From Armatimonadia bacterium (GTDB lineage: Bacteria; Armatimonadota; Zipacnadia; Zipacnadales; UBA11051), in NCBI GenBank assembly GCA_039683575.1, contig JBDKRC010000174.1, positions 1-10,942 of the forward strand: a stretch of DNA of 10,942 nucleotides, given 5' to 3'. Below the pieces are notes generated by a model. The model was not told the origin of the DNA and did not search any database. It worked only from the letters and a program-made list of their open reading frames with translations. Positions 1,335 to 6,689 of this stretch are shown piece after piece. Each line of letters starts with the position of its first letter. The first letter of the stretch is position 1. The translations under genes were made by a program, and so were the position numbers.

Positions 1335-1367
1335 ATGAGTCGCCGTTCGCACAACCCAACCAGCCGT

Positions 1368-1507
1368 GTAGTGCGGGCGTCCCGCCCGCCTCCGAGCAGC
1401 TTCGCAAGAGTCGTACGAGCGGCATCCATGCGACCGCCGCGGTCGCCACGCGAGGGTAGCGCCAGCCTGTGGGGCTTCCAGCCCCACAGGCTGGGGGTCC
1501 TCCCCAG
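1368..1507 (+). repeat. Cluster of REP-like hairpins
   Basis: GTAG-T-GCGGGCG-TCC-CGCCCGC (1368-1389); GTACGAGCGGCATCCA (1413-1428) followed by GCGACCG-CCG-CGGTCGC (1430-1446); GTAG-CG plus a perfect 14-bp stem CCAGCCTGTGGGGC-TTCCA-GCCCCACAGGCTGG (1456-1494); CTGGGG-GTCCT-CCCCAG (1491-1507). Confidence 0.75.
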
Positions 1508-1539
1508 ACCTTACCAGAGCAACTAGGGGGTAAGAGACC

Positions 1540-2223
1540 ATGAAGCGCCTTTGGAGAGACGGACCCGCCGCCAACCCCATCAACGCCGTCCCCGATGGCT
1601 ACGATGGCCCGCGCTGCACCTGGAAGTACAAGCTCAATTTCGACGACAGCCTGGGCCGCCCGGTCATCTGCGGCTTGCCCGCCTGGGAGGAGGCTGGCCA
1701 GCCGGAGCCCCGCTGCCTGCTGCACGCCCGCCGCAAGCCTGAATGCTTCTATGAGCTCCTTCTGGAGCTCATAGAAGAGGGCGCGGACATTTCCGAGGCC
1801 CGCCTTGAGTACCTCGACCTGCCCGGGATTGACTTCTCCGGCATGGGTGCGGAGGGGCTCTTGTGCAACGGCGCGAACCTGCGCGGAGCCAACTTCTCCG
1901 AGGCCGGCATTAGCTTCGTGACCTTCGACGGCGCCGACCTCACCGGGGCCTGCTTCGAGAAGGCGATGGGCATGCACACCGAGTTCAACGGCGCCTGCCT
2001 GCGCGACGCCAACCTGCGCGACGTAGACATCGAGTTCGCCGAGTTCCGGGGTGCCGACCTCAGGGGAGCCGATCTCACCAACGCCAACTTCGAGCAAGCC
2101 TGGGTCAACGGCTCCCACCCCCCGCCCGAAGAGTGGCAGGTCAAGCACCTATCCCGGCATGAACTCTTCCCGGACGACGACAATGATATCTGGGACGAGA
2201 TTTCGTGGAGCCACCTCAAGTAA
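1540..2223 (+). CDS. Pentapeptide repeat protein with N-terminal Cys3His motif
   Basis: About 22 consecutive in-register pentapeptides at residues 82-191 (e.g. ANLRG, ANFSE, ADLTG, ANLRD, ADLRG, ADLTN). N-terminal C26-x17-C44-x14-C59-x2-H62. Acidic C-terminal tail. Confidence 0.9.
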   Translation: MKRLWRDGPAANPINAVPDGYDGPRCTWKYKLNFDDSLGRPVICGLPAWEEAGQPEPRCLLHARRKPECFYELLLELIEEGADISEARLEYLDLPGIDFSGMGAEGLLCNGANLRGANFSEAGISFVTFDGADLTGACFEKAMGMHTEFNGACLRDANLRDVDIEFAEFRGADLRGADLTNANFEQAWVNGSHPPPEEWQVKHLSRHELFPDDDNDIWDEISWSHLK

Positions 2224-2266
2224 CGGCCCTCCGATCCCGCCGTTGCCTGGCCGTGCCTTTCCGGCT

Positions 2267-2404
2267 GTAGGGCGTAGCGACGTCTGCGTCGCAGGGGGCT
2301 CCGTACCCCGCCTGCCGTTATCACCGACCAACCCACGCCCGCCCGTGACCGAGGAATGAGCCTTCGCCTTTACGCAGGCCCCCCCGCCCCCTGCGGCGAA
2401 CTAC
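2267..2404. repeat. REP-like hairpins in opposite orientations
   Basis: + strand: GTAGGGC[GTAGCGACGTCTGCGTCGCA]GGGGGCTCCGTACCCCGCC (2267-2312). - strand: GTAG-TTCGCC...GGCGAA (2404 to 2363) with an internal GCAGG/CCTGC stem. Confidence 0.65.
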
Positions 2405-2433
2405 CACCCATCACTCCGGGGGAGCCTCCCACC

Positions 2434-3084
2434 ATGAACACCCTCTATGCTCCCCCCCGTGGCGCTACTGGCAAAATAACTACGTTACCTAGGGAGGAAT
2501 CGTCATGGCAACTCTGAAGCTTTACAGACTGAGAGTGACACTGAAGCGTGGTCCTGTCACAGAGGAGTTCGCCAGAGCGAATCCGACTGTCGCTCGCACT
2601 TTTGAGATTCGGGGGGATCAGACTCTGGACGATCTTCATGAGGCGATTATGCAGGAGTTCCAGCGCTGGGATGCTCATCTTTACGAGTTTGAGATTGAGC
2701 CAAGAGGTAAGAGACAGAATCTTAGCCCGTACTTTGTCCTGCCCTTCGATCTTGAAGAGGGACTCAGTATGGGAGAGGCGACAAGAAACGACGCCACCAA
2801 GACAAAGCTCAGTTCGCTCTACCTCAAGGTTGGGGACGATTTCTCATATCTCTTCGACTACGGCGACGGGTGGCGGCACCTGATAGAGGTCGAGGCCATC
2901 ACAACGCTTCCCATATATCCTCGAGTTGTAGCCAGCGAGGGAGATATCCCGCCCCAGTCTGTCGAGTGGGATGACAGCATGATGATCTACGGCGATCCCT
3001 TTCCAGAAGAGTGGGAGGCGGCGCGCGATGCGCAAGCAGATGACAAGCCTATGCCCGAAGAAGATTTGAAATGAACACCCTCTA
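2434..3084 (+). repeat. Perfect 14-bp direct repeat ATGAACACCCTCTA at 2434-2447 and 3071-3084 flanking the pRiA4b-ORF3 gene
   Basis: Both copies read directly from the sequence, 637 bp apart. The second copy is the first 14 nt of the methyltransferase CDS. Confidence 0.9.
2505..3074 (+). CDS. Plasmid pRiA4b ORF-3 family protein (MM3350 / IS1096 passenger TnpR-like)
   Basis: Motifs RTFEIRGDQTLDDLHEAI...WDAHLYEF, FSYLFDYGDGWRHLIEVE and YPRVV...G..PPQ. Strong RBS AGGGAGG at 2491-2497. Its stop TGA overlaps the next ATG (ATGA, 3071-3074). Confidence 0.88.
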   Translation: MATLKLYRLRVTLKRGPVTEEFARANPTVARTFEIRGDQTLDDLHEAIMQEFQRWDAHLYEFEIEPRGKRQNLSPYFVLPFDLEEGLSMGEATRNDATKTKLSSLYLKVGDDFSYLFDYGDGWRHLIEVEAITTLPIYPRVVASEGDIPPQSVEWDDSMMIYGDPFPEEWEAARDAQADDKPMPEEDLK

Positions 3085-4699
3085 CTACGGCGACAACCTC
3101 GACATCCTCCGCCGCTATATCGCCGACGAGTCGGTGGACCTTGTTTACCTCGACCCGCCCTTCAACTCCAACGCCAACTACAACGTGCTCTTCGCTGAAA
3201 AGGACGGGACGCAGGCCGCCTCGCAGATCAAGGCCTTCGACGATACCTGGACCTGGACTCTCGAAGCGCGCGCGGTTTTCGAGGAACTGGCAGAGCGGCA
3301 GGACCGCGTCGCCGACGCCATGATTGCCTTCCAACGCCTCCTGGGCACCAATGACATGCTGGCCTACCTCACCATGATGGCCCCCCGCCTCGTCGAACTC
3401 CGCCGCGTCCTCAAGCCCACGGGCAGCCTGTACCTCCACTGCGATCCGACGGCGAGTCATTACCTGAAGGTGTTGCTGGATGCGGTCTTTGGCGCGGTGA
3501 ACTACCGCAATGAGATCACGTGGCGGCGGACGAGCGGCCACAATGATGCGAAGCGGAAGTATGCGGACACTACTGACATCATTCTGTTCTACTCGAAAGG
3601 CCCCAAGCACACATTCAACGTTCAATACGCCCCTTATTCCGAGAAGTACATCGAGACGTTTTACGTTCATAAGGACCCGGATGGTCGGCGCTGGCGGCGC
3701 GGTGATCTGAGGAGTCCGAACCCGCGTCCGAATCTCATGTATGACTACAAAGGGCACAGACCGCACAAGAACGGATGGGCGGTCTCGCGGGAACGGATGG
3801 AGCAACTCGATGCGGAAGGACGCCTCCATTGCCCTGCCAAGCCCGACGGTCGGATACAACTGAAACGGTATTTGGACGAGCAACCGGGCATGCCTGTCAC
3901 ATGCTCATGGGATGACATTCCGCCGATTCATGCTCTCACAGCCGAACGCCTCGGCTACCCCACCCAAAAGCCCGAGGCGCTGCTCGAACGCATTATCTCC
4001 GCCTCCTCCAATGAGGGCGACGTTGTCCTCGACCCCTTCTGCGGTTGCGGCACTACCATCGCCGCCGCGCAGAAACTCGGCCGGAAATGGATTGGCGTTG
4101 ACGTGACTCATCTCGCCATCACCCTGATGAAACAGCGGTTGGCGGACCACTTCGGCGAGACTGTGGAGTATCAGGTCGTCGGCGAGCCGACTTCGCTGCC
4201 CGATGCCGAGGCCCTCGCTCTGCAGGACCGCCACCAGTTCGAAATCTGGGCGCTCGGTCTCGTCCATGCCCGGCCCTTCGAAGCCAAGCAAGGTGCCGAC
4301 CGGGGCATTGACGGGCGCATTCGTTTTAATCAGGGTATGAACACGTACGACTGGACCGAGGCGCTGATCTCCGTCAAGTCCGGCAATGTCCACTCCAACG
4401 TGGTATCAGAGCTTCGGGGAGTGGTAGAACGGGAGAAGGCTGCGATTGGGGTTCTTATTACCTTGCACGAACCAACTCGCAACATGATTCGCGAGGCAGT
4501 TGACGCCGGGTTCTACACTTTGCCCTATGACGAGACGAAGAAATACCCGAAGCTGCAGATATTGACGATCGCCGATCTGCTCGCCGGAAAGCAGATTGAG
4601 TGCGGTCCCCTCCACCATAGCGCCGGCACCTTCAAACAGGCCCCGAAGGCTGGTCGCCAATCCGGCCAGATGCAGATTGAAACTGACGCCGACGACTAG
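3071..4699 (+). CDS. Site-specific DNA amino-methyltransferase (N6A/N4C, beta class) fused to a C-terminal Mrr-like PD-(D/E)xK domain
   Basis: Catalytic motif IV DPPF (aa 28-31) precedes the SAM-binding motif I DPFCGCGT (from aa 321), which is beta order. Also GSLYLHCD and YPTQKPEALLERII. The C-terminal ~155 aa carry FEIWA...ADRGIDG...ISVKSG...V.ELRGVVERE.A.IGVLITL, an Mrr_cat-like pattern. Confidence 0.9.
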   Translation: MNTLYYGDNLDILRRYIADESVDLVYLDPPFNSNANYNVLFAEKDGTQAASQIKAFDDTWTWTLEARAVFEELAERQDRVADAMIAFQRLLGTNDMLAYLTMMAPRLVELRRVLKPTGSLYLHCDPTASHYLKVLLDAVFGAVNYRNEITWRRTSGHNDAKRKYADTTDIILFYSKGPKHTFNVQYAPYSEKYIETFYVHKDPDGRRWRRGDLRSPNPRPNLMYDYKGHRPHKNGWAVSRERMEQLDAEGRLHCPAKPDGRIQLKRYLDEQPGMPVTCSWDDIPPIHALTAERLGYPTQKPEALLERIISASSNEGDVVLDPFCGCGTTIAAAQKLGRKWIGVDVTHLAITLMKQRLADHFGETVEYQVVGEPTSLPDAEALALQDRHQFEIWALGLVHARPFEAKQGADRGIDGRIRFNQGMNTYDWTEALISVKSGNVHSNVVSELRGVVEREKAAIGVLITLHEPTRNMIREAVDAGFYTLPYDETKKYPKLQILTIADLLAGKQIECGPLHHSAGTFKQAPKAGRQSGQMQIETDADD

Positions 4700-4948
4700 C
4701 CAGCCTCGACTCACCTACTACGCATGGTAGCAGACTTCCCCAAAGGGGGATTCAGAACCTTCTGGGTCCCCATTTTTGCCTCTCCCTCCACCCCTGCTTT
4801 CGCTTTGTGCAAAGTCGTCACTGACATGGTAGAGGAAATCTTCCAATATCACTATCGGTCAAGATTGATTGTGTCAATGAATGGCTGTTTTGAAGCATTT
4901 GTGGTGCCTTTTGCGCGGGCAGGTGAGGACTTCGCGGATGGTCAATTC

Positions 4949-4973
4949 TATAGTTTGCAGCTCTCCAAGGGAG
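4949..4973 (+). promoter_or_regulatory. Candidate -10 box and RBS upstream of the sulfatase
   Basis: TATAGT at 4949-4954 and AAGGGAG at 4967-4973, 7 nt before ATG 4981. No convincing -35 at canonical spacing. Confidence 0.4.
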
Positions 4974-4980
4974 ACGTACC

Positions 4981-6519
4981 ATGTCCGACCAGAAACGCCC
5001 GAATCTGCTCCTCATCATGACCGACCAGCACCGCGGGGACTGTCTGCGGTGTGATGGTAATGAAGTGATAGAGACCCCCTATTTCGACGAACTGGCCTCG
5101 CAGGGCACGCGCTTTACCGCGGCCTATACGGCCTGTCCGTCCTGCATTCCCGCCCGCGCGACGCTGATGACGGGGATGGACCAGTGGCATACCGGGGTCC
5201 TGGGCATGGGGCGCAGCCGGAGCAATATGACCCAGCACTACGCCCATACGCTGCCGGGGGAGTTGGCGGCGGCGGGGTACCATACCCAGGGCATAGGCAA
5301 GATGCACTTTCACCCGCAGAGGGCCCTGTACGGCTTCCACAACACGATTCTCGATGAAAGCAGCCGCGCCGTCAGCTCGGAATTTGTGAGCGATTACCGC
5401 CGGTGGTTCGAAGAGAACAAAGACGGGCCATACGGCTATCGCGACCACAGCGTGGACTGGAATTCGTGGATGAGCCGCCCCTCGCACCTGCCCGAGCACC
5501 TGCACCCCACGTGGTGGACGGCACAGCAGGGAATTGACTGGCTGGACCGCAGAGACCCGGAGAAGCCGTTTTTCCTGAAAGTAAGCTTCGCCCGCCCCCA
5601 TTCGCCCTACGACCCGCCGCAGGCATATTACGATATGTACCGCGATCGCGAGATGCCGCCCGCGCGGGTGGGCAACTGGTCGCATATCCACGATATACAT
5701 TCTGATGACACCAACGCCTGGCGCTCCCACCGCACCGAGGCTGAGATCCAGCGGGCACGGGCCTGCTACTACGGGAATGTGACCTTCATTGACCACCAGG
5801 TCGGGCGGCTGCTGTACGAGCTGCGGCAGCGGTATCCTGAGGACCACCGCAACACGCTGATCGTCTTTACCTCGGACCACGGGGACATGTTGGGCGACCA
5901 CCATTTATGGCGCAAGACGTACGCGTACGACGGCTCAGCGCGGATTCCGATGATTGTGCGGCCCCCGCTGGGTTGGGACGCGCCACGGGGGCAGGTGCGT
6001 GATGAGGTGGTGGAACTGCGGGATGTGATGCCGACATTCCTCGCCGCGGCAGGGGTGGAGATACCTGAGACTGTGGATGGCATGAGCATGATGCCGCTGG
6101 TCAGCCCTCGCCTAGGTGGGTTCGTCTCGAACCCACAACCGGCCGGGGCCGGGGAGGCGGGTTCAGGGATGAACCCGCCTACGCGACAATGGCGGGACTA
6201 TCTACTCGGCGAGCATGACTGGTGCTACAGCCACGAGCAGGCCTACTACAGCGTCACCGACGGGCGCTGGAAGTACATCTGGTTCCCGTATCTCGGCACC
6301 GAGCAGCTTTTCGACCGGGGGGAAGACCCCGGCGAGGAGCATGACCTGGTGACAGCCGGGCAGGGCGGGGAGGCGCTGGAGAAGTGGCGGCAGGTGATGG
6401 TTGAGGAGCTTAAGGCACGGGACTGCGGGCTGGTGGAGGACGAAAGGCTCGTGACGCTGAGCCTCGATCAGGCGATCCGGAGCCCGAATCTGTATACATA
6501 CGGATGCAGGCCGTCCTAG
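4981..6519 (+). CDS. Cys-type (formylglycine-dependent, S1) sulfatase, cytoplasmic; arylsulfatase/choline-sulfatase-like
   Basis: RPNLLLIMTDQHR start, CxPxR signature CIPARATLMTG (C55), GKMH, PHSPYDPP, NTLIVFTSDHGDMLGDH and WKYI...EQLFD...DPGE. No signal peptide. Confidence 0.95.
   Translation: MSDQKRPNLLLIMTDQHRGDCLRCDGNEVIETPYFDELASQGTRFTAAYTACPSCIPARATLMTGMDQWHTGVLGMGRSRSNMTQHYAHTLPGELAAAGYHTQGIGKMHFHPQRALYGFHNTILDESSRAVSSEFVSDYRRWFEENKDGPYGYRDHSVDWNSWMSRPSHLPEHLHPTWWTAQQGIDWLDRRDPEKPFFLKVSFARPHSPYDPPQAYYDMYRDREMPPARVGNWSHIHDIHSDDTNAWRSHRTEAEIQRARACYYGNVTFIDHQVGRLLYELRQRYPEDHRNTLIVFTSDHGDMLGDHHLWRKTYAYDGSARIPMIVRPPLGWDAPRGQVRDEVVELRDVMPTFLAAAGVEIPETVDGMSMMPLVSPRLGGFVSNPQPAGAGEAGSGMNPPTRQWRDYLLGEHDWCYSHEQAYYSVTDGRWKYIWFPYLGTEQLFDRGEDPGEEHDLVTAGQGGEALEKWRQVMVEELKARDCGLVEDERLVTLSLDQAIRSPNLYTYGCRPS
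6108..6186. repeat. Inverted REP doublet (REPIN/BIME-like) inside the sulfatase CDS
   Basis: CTAG-GTGGGTTCG-TCT-CGAACCCAC (6112-6136, 9-bp stem) and AGGCGGGTTCA-GGGA-TGAACCCGCCT-AC (6155-6182, 11-bp stem, reading GTAG... on the - strand). The outer ends 6108-6123 and 6171-6186 are inverted repeats with 14/16 matches. Confidence 0.8.
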
Positions 6520-6584: not shown

Positions 6585-6689
6585 GCCCGGCTGGAAGCCG
6601 GGCTCTAGTGGCGTTATCTCGCGGCTGGAAGCCGCTCGTACGACGTTGAAGGGACCTGACATAGTCTGGTCGGAAGCCGCGCGTACGAC
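6585..6689 (-). repeat. Three tandem REP-like units sharing GGAAGCCG
   Basis: Minus-strand reads are CTAGAGCCCGGCTTCCAGCCGGGC (6608 to 6585), GTACGAGCGGCTTCCAGCCGCGA (6641 to 6619) and a degenerate GTACGCGCGGCTTCC (6686 to 6672). The reverse complement of 6626-6644 matches 1410-1428 at 18/19 nt. Confidence 0.75.

What the first reader, a model, noticed from the sequence alone, without database searches (positions are those of the whole stretch)
2418..3084. 637-bp cassette apparently integrated at the start of the methyltransferase-nuclease gene, with a 14-bp duplication
Seen: ATGAACACCCTCTA occurs at 2434-2447 and at 3071-3084, and both copies begin MNTLY. The upstream copy has its own RBS-like GGGGGAG (2418-2424) but opens only a 27-aa ORF (MNTLYAPPRG...SWQL*, 2434-2517). 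The 637 bp between them hold just the pRiA4b-ORF3 gene and are lower in GC (29/60 at 2701-2760 versus 44/60 at 421-480). The downstream copy supplies that gene's stop codon (ATGA overlap). Inference: a single-gene cassette with no recombinase integrated at the MTase start, separated the gene from its original RBS and coupled its translation to ORF3. Recombination between the repeats would restore RBS-ATG-MTase exactly, which could act as an expression switch. pRiA4b-ORF3 proteins have no established function. An alternative is that the upstream copy is the stump of a related MTase replaced by an incoming ORF3+MTase block.
Basis: partly seen in the sequence, partly recalled or inferred. Interest (0 to 1): 0.8.

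Follow-up and report, generated by a model that had tools for sequence, protein, structure and literature searches.

The report
Foreign gene inserted into methyltransferase start
A small foreign gene of unknown function was spliced into the first five codons of a DNA-methyltransferase gene, and those 14 bases were copied so that the gene stayed whole and a dead stub was left behind; this looks like an ordinary insertion scar, not a genetic switch.

Summary
ATGAACACCCTCTA lies at 2434-2447 and 3071-3084 and nowhere else in the 6.2-Mb genome. The upstream copy follows GGGGGAG and opens a 27-codon stub. The 623 bp between the copies hold one PF07929 (pRiA4b ORF3-like) gene, and the downstream copy is the canonical MNTLYYGDNL start of an intact N6_N4-MTase/Mrr fusion.

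ORF3 is a lineage-specific addition:
- None of 99 other MTase-Mrr loci carries it.
- Its nearest relative among 5.8 billion proteins is 45-47% identical.
- The two closest MTase alleles (98% identical over residues 1-60) come from contigs for which no ORF3 orthologue is on record.

Third-position GC is 0.60 in ORF3, 0.90 in the first 60 MTase codons and 0.79-0.89 in host genes.

My best reading (0.62) is a one-off insertion with a 14-bp target duplication, which leaves stub, ORF3 and MTase as a chain of overlapping cistrons.

Nothing supports a mobile cassette or a switch. There is no recombinase, terminal inverted repeat or integron core site, and no second case turned up in this genome, in 96 related MTase loci or in 57 ORF3 loci. 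Read mapping could not be done, and no site without the insert could be read directly.

The scan has noted similar start-duplicating insertions in restriction genes of other genomes. The closest published kind is "insertion with long target duplication" (Furuta et al. 2010).

The parts
2418..2424 (+). Shine-Dalgarno-like GGGGGAG, presumed original ribosome-binding site of the MTase gene, now serving the stub
   Evidence: Sequence. SD-like word in -18..-4 of the stub start. The same test scores 0.147 at random genome positions and 0.439 at first ATGs of 1801 long ORFs, so the support is modest.
2434..2447 (+). Upstream copy of the 14-bp direct repeat (the displaced original first 14 nt of the MTase gene)
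   Evidence: One of only two copies in the genome.
2434..2517 (+). 27-codon stub ORF (MNTLY + 22 unrelated residues). Its stop lies 10 nt past the ORF3 start codon.
   Evidence: Translation. No Pfam family.
2448..3070 (+). Inserted segment (623 bp): a 57-nt leader with its own SD, plus the ORF3 coding sequence up to its last two sense bases
   Evidence: Lower GC and GC3 than both sides. Single copy in the genome. No terminal inverted repeats and no integron core sites.
2492..2499 (+). SD-like GGGAGGAA of ORF3, 5 nt before its ATG
   Evidence: Sequence; SD test.
2505..3074 (+). ORF3, 189 aa, PRiA4_ORF3 / MM3350-like family, function unknown. It has an acidic C-terminal tail longer than in its relatives.
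   Evidence: PF07929 at E 1.3e-23. PDB 2i1s at E 1.6e-4. Nearest homologue 45-47% identical. The tail is not covered by any of 30 aligned homologues.
3071..3084 (+). Downstream copy of the 14-bp repeat. It is the working start of the MTase gene and supplies ORF3's TGA.
   Evidence: MNxLYYGDNL is the usual start of the family.
3071..4699 (+). Intact 542-aa fusion of a beta-class N6/N4 DNA methyltransferase and an Mrr-like PD-(D/E)xK domain; this is the interrupted-and-restored target gene
   Evidence: PF01555 at E 7.7e-47, PF04471 at 2e-7, PF22722 at 4e-7. DPPF at residue 28, FCGCG at 323, GIDG at 412. Full-length relatives without stops.
4746..4771 (+). Terminator-like hairpin followed by ATTTTTG, the probable end of the stub-ORF3-MTase transcription unit
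   Evidence: Consensus scan. The number of such sites in the region (3) is not above shuffles (mean 2.1), so this is weak.

Best explanation
A foreign DNA segment of about 623 bp (2448-3070) was inserted once, by an unknown recombinase-independent route, 14 nt into the coding sequence of a resident MTase-Mrr gene. The segment carries one complete PRiA4_ORF3 gene with its own ribosome-binding site. The 14 nt from the ATG to the insertion point ended up on both sides of the insert as a target duplication.

Consequences:
- The upstream copy stays behind the gene's original Shine-Dalgarno motif and opens a dead 27-codon stub.
- The downstream copy re-creates an intact MTase start.
- ORF3 terminates in the TGA of the duplicated ATGA, so MTase translation is now most likely coupled to ORF3 by termination-reinitiation.
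- The stub stops 10 nt after the ORF3 start, which gives a chain of three overlapping cistrons.

This is a scar of one insertion event, of the same general kind as 'insertion with target duplication' seen around restriction-modification genes. It is not a programmed switch. Exact loss by slippage between the 14-bp repeats is possible but should be rare.

Shown: the repeat, its uniqueness, the compositional edges, the absence of ORF3 from all other loci of the family, and the intactness of the MTase. Inferred: the direction of the event, the route, the coupling and the rarity of reversal.
For: 1. **The repeat.** It is exact, sharply bounded, in direct orientation and present only twice in the genome. 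The downstream copy starts at the first start codon of the 542-aa ORF, which is the canonical family start.
2. **ORF3 is not part of the family's gene order.**
   - A tblastn with ORF3 found nothing better than E 1.2 in 99 other MTase-Mrr loci: 19 from relatives and 80 from metagenomes. Of these, 74 have at least 650 nt of upstream flank.
   - ORF3 homologues occur in 20 of 60 related genomes, but on other contigs than the full-length MTase matches.
   - Only 1 of 61 ORF3-homologue loci holds any match to the MTase, and it lies about 2.6 kb away.
3. **Close alleles appear to lack it.** P0038 and P0039 are 98% identical to the window's MTase over residues 1-60 and 94-95% over 61-140. The same protein collection holds no ORF3 relative above 47% identity at 103-331 aa and none at all at 30-102 aa.
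4. **Composition.** GC3 is 0.60 in ORF3, 0.57 in its tail, 0.90 in the first two 30-codon windows of the MTase, and 0.79-0.89 in five flanking genes. The leader has GC 0.56 against 0.71 for the upstream intergenic stretch. The left GC change-point interval, 2427-2476, includes the repeat.
5. **Ribosome-binding sites.** There is an SD-like word before the stub and none before the present MTase start.
6. **The MTase is intact**, with motifs IV and I.
7. **A published kind of event gives this picture:** genes inserted with flanking target duplication and no mobility genes (PMC2853133; abstract, passages and Discussion read).
Against: - No site without the insert could be read. No allele closer than 81% DNA identity over the first 420 nt was found in 79 genomes of the class or in 401 of the phylum. 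The contigs of P0038 and P0039 could not be fetched, so the absence of ORF3 there rests on the protein collection alone.
- The upstream region of the stub shows no significant similarity to the upstream regions of 96 homologues, the in-genome paralogue or the G002 orthologue. Those regions are not alike among themselves either, so this test says nothing either way.
- A 14-bp duplication fits no defined route. It is longer than the <10 bp typical of transposons and shorter than the >30 bp used to define 'long target duplication'.
- That the repeat begins exactly at the A of ATG is a coincidence under a plain target-duplication model. It would follow naturally if the upstream copy were the head of another allele.
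- Short local repeats are common in this genome (1166 pairs), and the scan looks at very many windows.
- Reads were not available, so an assembly fault is not excluded.
Confidence: 0.62

Rival explanations
1. The upstream 14 nt are the stump of another MTase allele. Either a block [ORF3 + MTase allele] arrived from elsewhere and replaced a resident allele, with an illegitimate left junction after nt 14 and a homologous right junction. Or there were two tandem alleles with ORF3 between them, and all but the first 14 nt of the upstream one was deleted.
For: - Alleles of this gene with nearly identical ends and a swapped middle exist: P0038 and P0039 are 98% identical over residues 1-60 and 35-42% over 141-290. 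Two alleles could therefore share the first 14 nt, and recombination between alleles is evidently going on.
- This explains why identity starts exactly at the ATG.
- Earlier notes on this genome describe arrays of displaced gene tails elsewhere (not checked here).
Against: - It needs an ORF3-MTase arrangement in a donor, and none was seen in 99 loci or in the protein collection.
- GC3 jumps from 0.63-0.67 to 0.90 exactly at 3071, so ORF3 and the MTase 5' part do not look as if they arrived together.
- Among 95 homologues with a usable start, the closest first 14 nt I saw on reading the list were 13/14 (L090), and none was 14/14. This was read by eye, not counted by script.
- No other MTase fragment lies in the window.
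- It takes two or more events where an insertion takes one.
Confidence: 0.15
2. The 637 bp are an active, recombinase-less mini-element. It would be a cis-mobilisable cassette with a 14-bp att core that contains its own stop codon. A recombinase acting in trans would integrate it into the conserved 5' end of MTase genes and could excise it, switching MTase translation between direct and ORF3-coupled modes.
For: - Exact direct repeats of att-core size flank a single promoterless-looking gene.
- ORF3's stop lies inside the repeat, as expected if the core belongs to the element.
- The target encodes a highly conserved peptide.
- PF07929 genes travel as passengers in ISAzba1-group Mutator-like transposons (PMC3942029, passages read).
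- Earlier notes report integrase-less cassette arrays in this same genome (unchecked).
Against: - None of 96 other MTase-Mrr loci has a repeat of its start of 12 nt or more upstream. An 11-nt match occurs in 2 loci, equal to the reverse-complement control.
- Among 57 other ORF3-homologue loci, the only long flanking repeat is a 4-copy REP-like element.
- The 14-mer and ORF3 are single in the genome apart from this pair.
- No recombinase lies on the contig.
- ORF3 has no close relative anywhere, which is not what a spreading element would show.
Confidence: 0.08
3. The 14-nt identity is a chance match. ORF3 came to lie upstream of the MTase by some other route, and the 'stub' means nothing.
For: - Local short repeats are about 17 times commoner in this genome than a uniform random model predicts: 1166 observed pairs against my estimate of about 67.
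- About one chance coincidence of a repeat with a true gene start is expected per genome of this size, by my estimate.
- The scan covers very many windows.
Against: - The other copy would have to fall in the 281-nt intergenic stretch just upstream of the one foreign gene, in the same orientation. My estimate for that is 1e-6 to 1e-7 for this locus.
- It also follows an SD-like word and lies inside the GC change-point interval.
- The only other hits of the genome-wide screen are real duplications.
Confidence: 0.07
4. Assembly artefact: the contig joins or collapses strain variants around 2434-2460.
For: The genome is a fragmented assembly of 352 contigs, and the window is a whole 10,942-nt contig. 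Reads could not be examined.
Against: From general knowledge, a 14-nt overlap is shorter than the word sizes assemblers join on. All reading frames around both junctions are coherent: the stub, ORF3 with its SD, and an intact MTase.
Confidence: 0.03

Closest known systems
Insertion with long target duplication of restriction-modification genes (Nobusato et al. 2000, recalled through its citation; Furuta, Abe and Kobayashi 2010, PMC2853133, with abstract, passages and Discussion read)
   Same: A gene-sized insert is flanked by a direct duplication of target sequence, with no transposase, integrase or inverted repeats. It is associated with restriction-modification loci. The mechanism is unknown, and the authors suspect double-strand breakage.
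   Different: The duplication here is 14 bp; the paper's criterion is >30 bp and its examples are 26-65 bp and more. The insert here is not an R-M system but a PF07929 gene, and the R-M-type gene is the target. No empty site is available for comparison.
Site-specific integration into a gene end with short att-core direct repeats, including elements that lack their own recombinase (SCCmec and pseudo-SCC in rlmH with 15-bp repeats; cis-mobilisable elements of streptococci). Recalled, not checked in a call.
   Same: Direct repeats of 14-15 bp lie at the end of a conserved gene. The interrupted gene stays intact. An element can lack a recombinase and depend on one in trans.
   Different: No recombinase is in sight. 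The site is not used recurrently (0 of 96 loci). There is a single copy, and the insert sits at the 5' end rather than the 3' end.
Transposon or IS target-site duplication, and PF07929 as a passenger gene of ISAzba1-group Mutator-like transposons (PMC3942029, passages read)
   Same: A direct duplication of the target flanks the insert, and the passenger family is the same.
   Different: There is no transposase, and no terminal inverted repeats: end-against-end alignment scores 5 against a shuffle mean of 6.3. 14 bp is longer than the <10 bp said to be typical (figure legend in PMC2853133).
Earlier cases in this scan on other DNA: e1-823526 (ATPase gene in the hsdR start, 48-bp duplication, ATGA overlaps), e1-1002467 (nuclease gene in the hsdS start, 75 bp) and e1-2046760 (cassette in the rpsJ start). 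These are AI notes seen.
   Same: A self-contained gene lies in the first codons of a gene, often a restriction gene. The codons are duplicated, leaving a dead stub upstream and an intact gene downstream, with overlapping stop and start codons.
   Different: The duplication here is shorter (14 bp) and the passenger family is different. Those notes were not re-tested here.

Membership tests
Insertion with long target duplication (criteria of Furuta et al. 2010, PMC2853133) | The insert is flanked by a direct duplication of a sequence that is otherwise unique in the genome | tested here: met
   A 14/14 direct repeat with only two copies in G000.
Insertion with long target duplication (criteria of Furuta et al. 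2010, PMC2853133) | Target duplication longer than 30 bp | tested here: not met
   14 bp, with identity ending sharply on both sides. The criterion was read.
Insertion with long target duplication (criteria of Furuta et al. 2010, PMC2853133) | The inserted sequence contains R and M gene homologues | tested here: not met
   The insert holds only a PF07929 gene. Other frames in it have no family.
Insertion with long target duplication (criteria of Furuta et al. 2010, PMC2853133) | No other mobile-element genes in or beside the insert | tested here: met
   Pfam on the nine main ORFs of the contig found no transposase, integrase or resolvase.
Insertion with long target duplication (criteria of Furuta et al. 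2010, PMC2853133) | A compared genome shows the empty site with the target present once | not testable with these tools
   No close allele was found in 60 relatives, 79 class genomes or 401 phylum genomes, nor in 80 metagenome loci. The contigs of P0038 and P0039 could not be fetched.
Transposon / insertion sequence | Terminal inverted repeats at the ends of the insert | tested here: not met
   First 50 nt against the reverse complement of the last 50 nt scores 5, and 951 of 1000 shuffles reach that.
Transposon / insertion sequence | A transposase gene in the element, or further copies of the element in the genome | tested here: not met
   No transposase. The 2448-3070 stretch is single in G000.
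Site-specific integrative or cis-mobilisable element | Recurrent use of the same att core or target in independent genomes or loci | tested here: not met
   None of 96 other MTase-Mrr loci has its start repeated upstream over 12 nt or more.
Site-specific integrative or cis-mobilisable element | Excised circle and empty site detectable in reads | not testable with these tools
   No sequencing runs could be obtained.
Integron gene cassette | attC with core sites GTTRRRY / RYYYAAC at the cassette boundaries, and an integron integrase nearby | tested here: not met
   Neither pattern occurs between 2380 and 3120. No integrase was found on the contig.
PRiA4_ORF3 (PF07929) / MM3350-like, for ORF3 | Match to the family HMM above the gathering score | tested here: met
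   84 bits against a cut-off of 26.6, E 1.3e-23. PDB 2i1s at E 1.6e-4. Invariant family columns such as the YxFDxGDxW block are present.
N6_N4 DNA methyltransferase fused to an Mrr-like nuclease domain, for the target gene | Both domains above threshold, with catalytic motif IV (DPPF/Y) and the AdoMet motif I (FxGxG) | tested here: met
   PF01555 at 160.5 bits and PF04471 at 31.6 bits. DPPF at 28 and FCGCG at 323. Whether the Mrr-like domain cuts DNA is open, since it reads GIDG...ISVKSG and also matches NA-iREase1.

The most novel reading that the evidence does not exclude
The 637 bp are a live, recombinase-less mini-cassette. It would home to the conserved MNTLYYGDNL-coding 5' end of this widespread MTase-Mrr family through a 14-bp core that carries the cassette's own stop codon. 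It would belong to the same unexplained, integrase-free way of docking genes at gene ends that earlier notes report elsewhere in this genome. Its excision and re-entry would toggle the methyltransferase between direct and ORF3-coupled translation.
Probability: 0.07. Interest if true: 0.7.

Novelty: new member of a known kind. Interest (0 to 1): 0.33.

Why it matters
This is a clean, datable example of how a foreign gene can enter the first codons of a working gene without killing it. The few interrupted bases are duplicated, the old ribosome-binding site is left to a dead stub, and the host gene is re-expressed by overlap with the guest.

Such events around restriction-modification genes are known from genome comparison, but their mechanism is unexplained. 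A case with only 14 bp of duplication narrows the gap between transposon-like and 'long' target duplications.

It also puts a PF07929 protein, a family with no known function, in obligatory translational series with a DNA methyltransferase. That gives a concrete construct to test.

As a single unrepeated event it does not establish a new mobile element or a switch.

Tried and rejected
- **Reads.** Deletion junctions, circles and assembly faults remain untested.
- **Empty allele in assembled data.** No MTase allele closer than 64-66% protein identity was found in 60 relatives or 80 metagenome loci. None was closer than 81% DNA identity over the first 420 nt in 79 class genomes or 401 phylum genomes. 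The predicted empty junction itself was not searched as a string.
- **Conserved 5' UTR.** The 106-150 nt before the stub are no more like the upstream regions of 96 homologues than the control stretch before 3071 (mean scores 8.96 against 8.88). They are also unlike those of the paralogue on C45 or the G002 orthologue (z -0.2 and 0.5). The test is uninformative, because those regions do not resemble each other either.
- **Flanking repeats as a general trait of PF07929 genes.**
  - 62 loci were available; 4 were dropped for short flanks (L031, L037, L145, L154) and 1 is the window itself.
  - Of the remaining 57, only L158 has a repeat of 12 nt or more (33 nt). It proved to be a 4-copy REP-like element.
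- **A second case in the same genome.**
  - 146 rows came from a screen of 9810 ORFs of 150 aa or more. Many were artefacts of my script at contig ends, with spacing 0 or negative.
  - I inspected 8 rows with positive spacing. They are palindromic REP-like repeats or repeats inside coding or spurious frames.
- **Displaced gene tails like those noted elsewhere in this genome.** No copy of the 3' ends of the esterase, pentapeptide or MTase genes was found in the window.
- **Neighbours of 61 ORF3-homologue loci.** The 103 neighbouring ORFs are heterogeneous: AbiEii 3, Fic 3, Metallophos 3, HsdM/N6_Mtase 2, PIN 2. No transposase family is among the 25 most frequent of the 84 families matched; the other 59 were not shown.
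- **Other libraries.** Rfam found nothing in the window. PADLOC, NCBIfam and PHROGs found nothing for ORF3.
- **Literature.** Two full-text searches for pRiA4b, PF07929, PRiA4_ORF3, MM3350, 'ORF-3-like protein' and IS1096 were run. From titles and abstract openings, no listed paper looks like a functional study of the family. I opened only PMC3942029 (passages), which reports these genes as transposon passengers of unknown function.
- **Structure prediction and complex prediction** were not run, because no claim here depends on them.
Full report
**What is there.** The window is a whole 10,942-nt contig (C174) of a 6.23-Mb assembly in 352 contigs. Earlier notes of this scan call the organism an uncultured Armatimonadia bacterium (I did not check this). 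On the + strand the contig carries, in order:

| Coordinates | Feature |
|---|---|
| 375-1334 | acetyl-xylan esterase |
| 1540-2223 | pentapeptide-repeat protein |
| 2224-2504 | 281-nt gap |
| 2505-3074 | 189-aa PF07929 protein (ORF3) |
| 3071-4699 | 542-aa N6_N4 methyltransferase fused to an Mrr-like domain |
| 4981-6519 | sulfatase |
| beyond 6519 | two further large genes |

The 14-mer ATGAACACCCTCTA stands at 2434-2447 and at 3071-3084. It occurs nowhere else in the genome on either strand. Identity ends abruptly on both sides.

- The upstream copy lies 9 nt behind GGGGGAG and opens a 27-codon frame that stops at 2515-2517, 10 nt after the ORF3 start codon.
- ORF3 has its own GGGAGGAA 5 nt before its ATG.
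- ORF3's TGA is the last three letters of the ATGA that begins the methyltransferase.
- No other frame inside the 623 bp has a family, and Rfam finds nothing in the window.

**Is the repeat more than chance?** On its own it is not. G000 holds 1166 direct-repeat pairs of 14-20 nt that are unique in the genome and 100-3000 nt apart, which is far above a uniform random expectation. The position is what counts. In only 3 of the 1166 pairs does the downstream copy begin at the first start codon of an ORF of 200 aa or more:

- this pair;
- a pair of tandem paralogues that both open long frames (C50);
- a pair that is the core of a duplication of about 65 nt of a gene's leader and start, with a REP-like array between the copies (C288).

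In addition, the upstream copy here falls in the short intergenic stretch just before the single intervening gene. It follows a Shine-Dalgarno-like word. Such a word is seen at 14.7% of random positions and at 43.9% of first ATGs of 1801 long ORFs, and is absent from -18..-4 of the present MTase start. The copy also lies inside the support interval (2427-2476) of the GC change-point. I put chance at about 7%.

**ORF3 is a late, foreign addition.** MNxLYYGDNL, with 0-6 residues before it, is the normal N-terminus of this methyltransferase family, so the downstream copy is the true gene start.

- A tblastn with ORF3 against 99 other loci of the family gave nothing better than E 1.2. These were 19 loci from related genomes and 80 from metagenomes. 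Of the 99, 74 have at least 650 nt upstream.
- ORF3 relatives at 43-50% identity exist in 20 of 60 related genomes, but on other contigs than the methyltransferase.
- Only 1 of 61 ORF3-homologue loci holds any match to the methyltransferase, about 2.6 kb away.
- In the 5.8-billion protein collection the nearest ORF3 relative is 45-47% identical and covers at most 84% of it. No piece of 30-102 aa matches at all.

The methyltransferase, by contrast, has two close alleles there, P0038 and P0039. Their identity to the window's protein by segment is:

| Residues | Identity |
|---|---|
| 1-60 | 98% |
| 61-140 | 94-95% |
| 141-290 | 35-42% |
| 291-460 | 89-93% |

They are the same gene with a swapped middle region. 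Both come from contigs of 7.8 and 20.6 kb, and no ORF3 orthologue is on record from any contig. I could not read their DNA, so this is indirect evidence that the near alleles lack ORF3.

**Composition.** Third-position GC is as follows:

| Region | GC3 |
|---|---|
| five flanking genes | 0.79-0.89 |
| whole methyltransferase | 0.75 |
| first two 30-codon windows of the methyltransferase | 0.90 |
| ORF3 | 0.60 |
| ORF3 tail | 0.57 |

The last ORF3 windows are at 0.63-0.67, so the jump falls at 3071. The 57-nt leader has GC 0.56 against 0.71 for 2224-2433.

**Which event?** The simplest account is one insertion of about 623 bp after nt 14 of the coding sequence, with those 14 nt ending up on both sides. 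This explains four things: the exact and sharply bounded direct repeat, the orphaned ribosome-binding site, the intact gene, and the two compositional edges. Only insertions that regenerate the start would leave a working gene, so a duplication reaching from the ATG to the insertion point is what one expects to see in a survivor.

The route is unknown.

- The insert has no terminal inverted repeats and no integron core sites.
- The contig has no transposase, integrase or resolvase.
- Fourteen base pairs is longer than the <10 bp typical of transposons and shorter than the >30 bp by which Furuta et al. defined 'insertion with long target duplication' of restriction-modification genes. That is a class with no mobility genes, for which they suspect double-strand breakage (PMC2853133).
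- A replication or repair template switch that left the methyltransferase after nt 14, copied a donor through ORF3 and returned at ATGA would give the same picture. This is inference.

ORF3's C-terminal tail runs 38 residues past the conserved PPQ. That is at least about 18 residues more than in any of the 30 aligned nearest homologues, so its original stop may have been lost or may be the TGA in the repeat. I cannot tell which.

**Rivals.**

It would also explain why identity begins exactly at the ATG. Against it: no ORF3-MTase arrangement exists anywhere else, GC3 jumps at the junction, and it needs at least two events. I give it 0.15.
- *Live recombinase-less cassette or switch.* This has no positive support. 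None of 96 other loci of the family repeats its start upstream over 12 nt or more, and 11-nt matches occur in 2 loci, as in the reverse-complement control. Of 57 other ORF3-homologue loci, only one has a long flanking repeat, and it is a 4-copy REP-like element. No further case was found in this genome. I give it 0.08.
- *Exact loss of the insert.* From recalled knowledge (lacI deletion hotspots; RecA needs longer homology), loss by slippage between 14-bp repeats 623 bp apart is possible but rare.
- *Assembly artefact.* This cannot be excluded without reads but is unlikely (0.03).

**How it works now (inferred).** Transcription presumably enters from upstream of 2418 and ends at the hairpin at 4746-4771 (weak evidence). 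Ribosomes that load at the old GGGGGAG translate the stub across ORF3's ribosome-binding site and start, and stop 10 nt later. ORF3 is translated from its own site or by re-initiation. The methyltransferase has no Shine-Dalgarno-like word of its own, so it depends on ribosomes that terminate at the ATGA. The methyltransferase keeps motifs IV (DPPF) and I (FCGCG) and its full length. Whether its Mrr-like domain cuts DNA is open.

ORF3's function is unknown.

- It belongs to the MM3350-like fold family (PDB 2i1s).
- It has no PADLOC, NCBIfam or PHROG match.
- Relatives travel as passengers in ISAzba1-group Mutator-like transposons (PMC3942029).
- Relatives sit among heterogeneous neighbours, some of them toxin-antitoxin and type I methylase genes.

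**Relation to earlier notes of the scan.** A word look-up showed that the scan has met the same shape on other DNA. Examples are an ATPase gene in the first codons of hsdR with a 48-bp duplication and ATGA overlaps (e1-823526), a nuclease gene in hsdS with 75 bp (e1-1002467), and a cassette in rpsJ (e1-2046760). The first of these pointed me to the Furuta paper, which I then read and tested against this window; two of its criteria are not met. Notes on this same genome describe arrays of displaced gene tails without an integrase (e1-5099308, e1-940092). I found no such tail copies in this window and did not re-examine those arrays.

**Verdict.** The insertion reading is supported and the switch reading is not. 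This is a further, unusually short-repeat member of a known but mechanistically unexplained kind of insertion, and it is of moderate interest.

Noticed in passing
window 2255-2345: REP-like dispersed element: 52 further matches of 81-100% identity elsewhere in G000, and weaker copies in same-genus genomes. As RNA it folds no better than shuffles, z 0.61. It ends about 90 nt before the upstream repeat copy.
   Followed up: partly
window ~224-310, 1364-1395, 4825-4869, 6109-6186, 6618-6645: Further short dispersed repeats of 25-80 nt in intergenic stretches, with tens of copies in G000 and in the same-genus genome G003.
   Followed up: no
window 3071-4699; proteins P0038, P0039: The two nearest relatives of the MTase-Mrr protein are mosaic alleles: 94-98% identical over residues 1-140, 89-93% over 291-460, but only 35-42% over 141-290. 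The middle region, probably the target-recognition part, has been swapped between alleles.
   Followed up: partly
G000 contig C45:630-2216 (minus strand): A second MTase-Mrr gene in the same genome, 73-74% identical in protein, with its own GAGGGGG ribosome-binding site and no ORF3.
   Followed up: partly
G000 contig C288:9897-10430: An imperfect duplication of about 65 nt of a gene's leader plus its first 14 nt, with a REP-like array between the copies. The upstream copy opens only 5 codons. This is another displaced gene head, but made by repeat elements and not by a gene insertion.
   Followed up: partly
window 1335-4980 compared with L141 (G002:C59) and L142 (G003:C6): The interval between the esterase and the sulfatase is variable in the genus. 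G002 and G003 hold other ORFs there (390, 468, 825 and 264 aa; 414, 257 and 827 aa), and the listed MTase matches of those genomes lie on other contigs. The pentapeptide gene, ORF3 and the MTase may therefore all be accessory here.
   Followed up: partly
window 4700-4980: Low-GC (0.505) gap after the MTase, with a terminator-like hairpin at 4746-4771. The 98-aa ORF at 4724-5020 has no family in Pfam, NCBIfam or PADLOC and is probably not a gene.
   Followed up: partly
window 4290-4380 (protein residues 407-437): The Mrr-like domain reads GIDG...ISVKSG and also matches the 'inactive restriction endonuclease' family NA-iREase1, E 4e-7. Its nuclease activity is doubtful.
   Followed up: no
L158:2887-4693: In an alphaproteobacterial MAG, several small genes, one of them PF07929, are separated by a 39-nt REP-like repeat with four direct copies and inverted copies.
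   Followed up: partly
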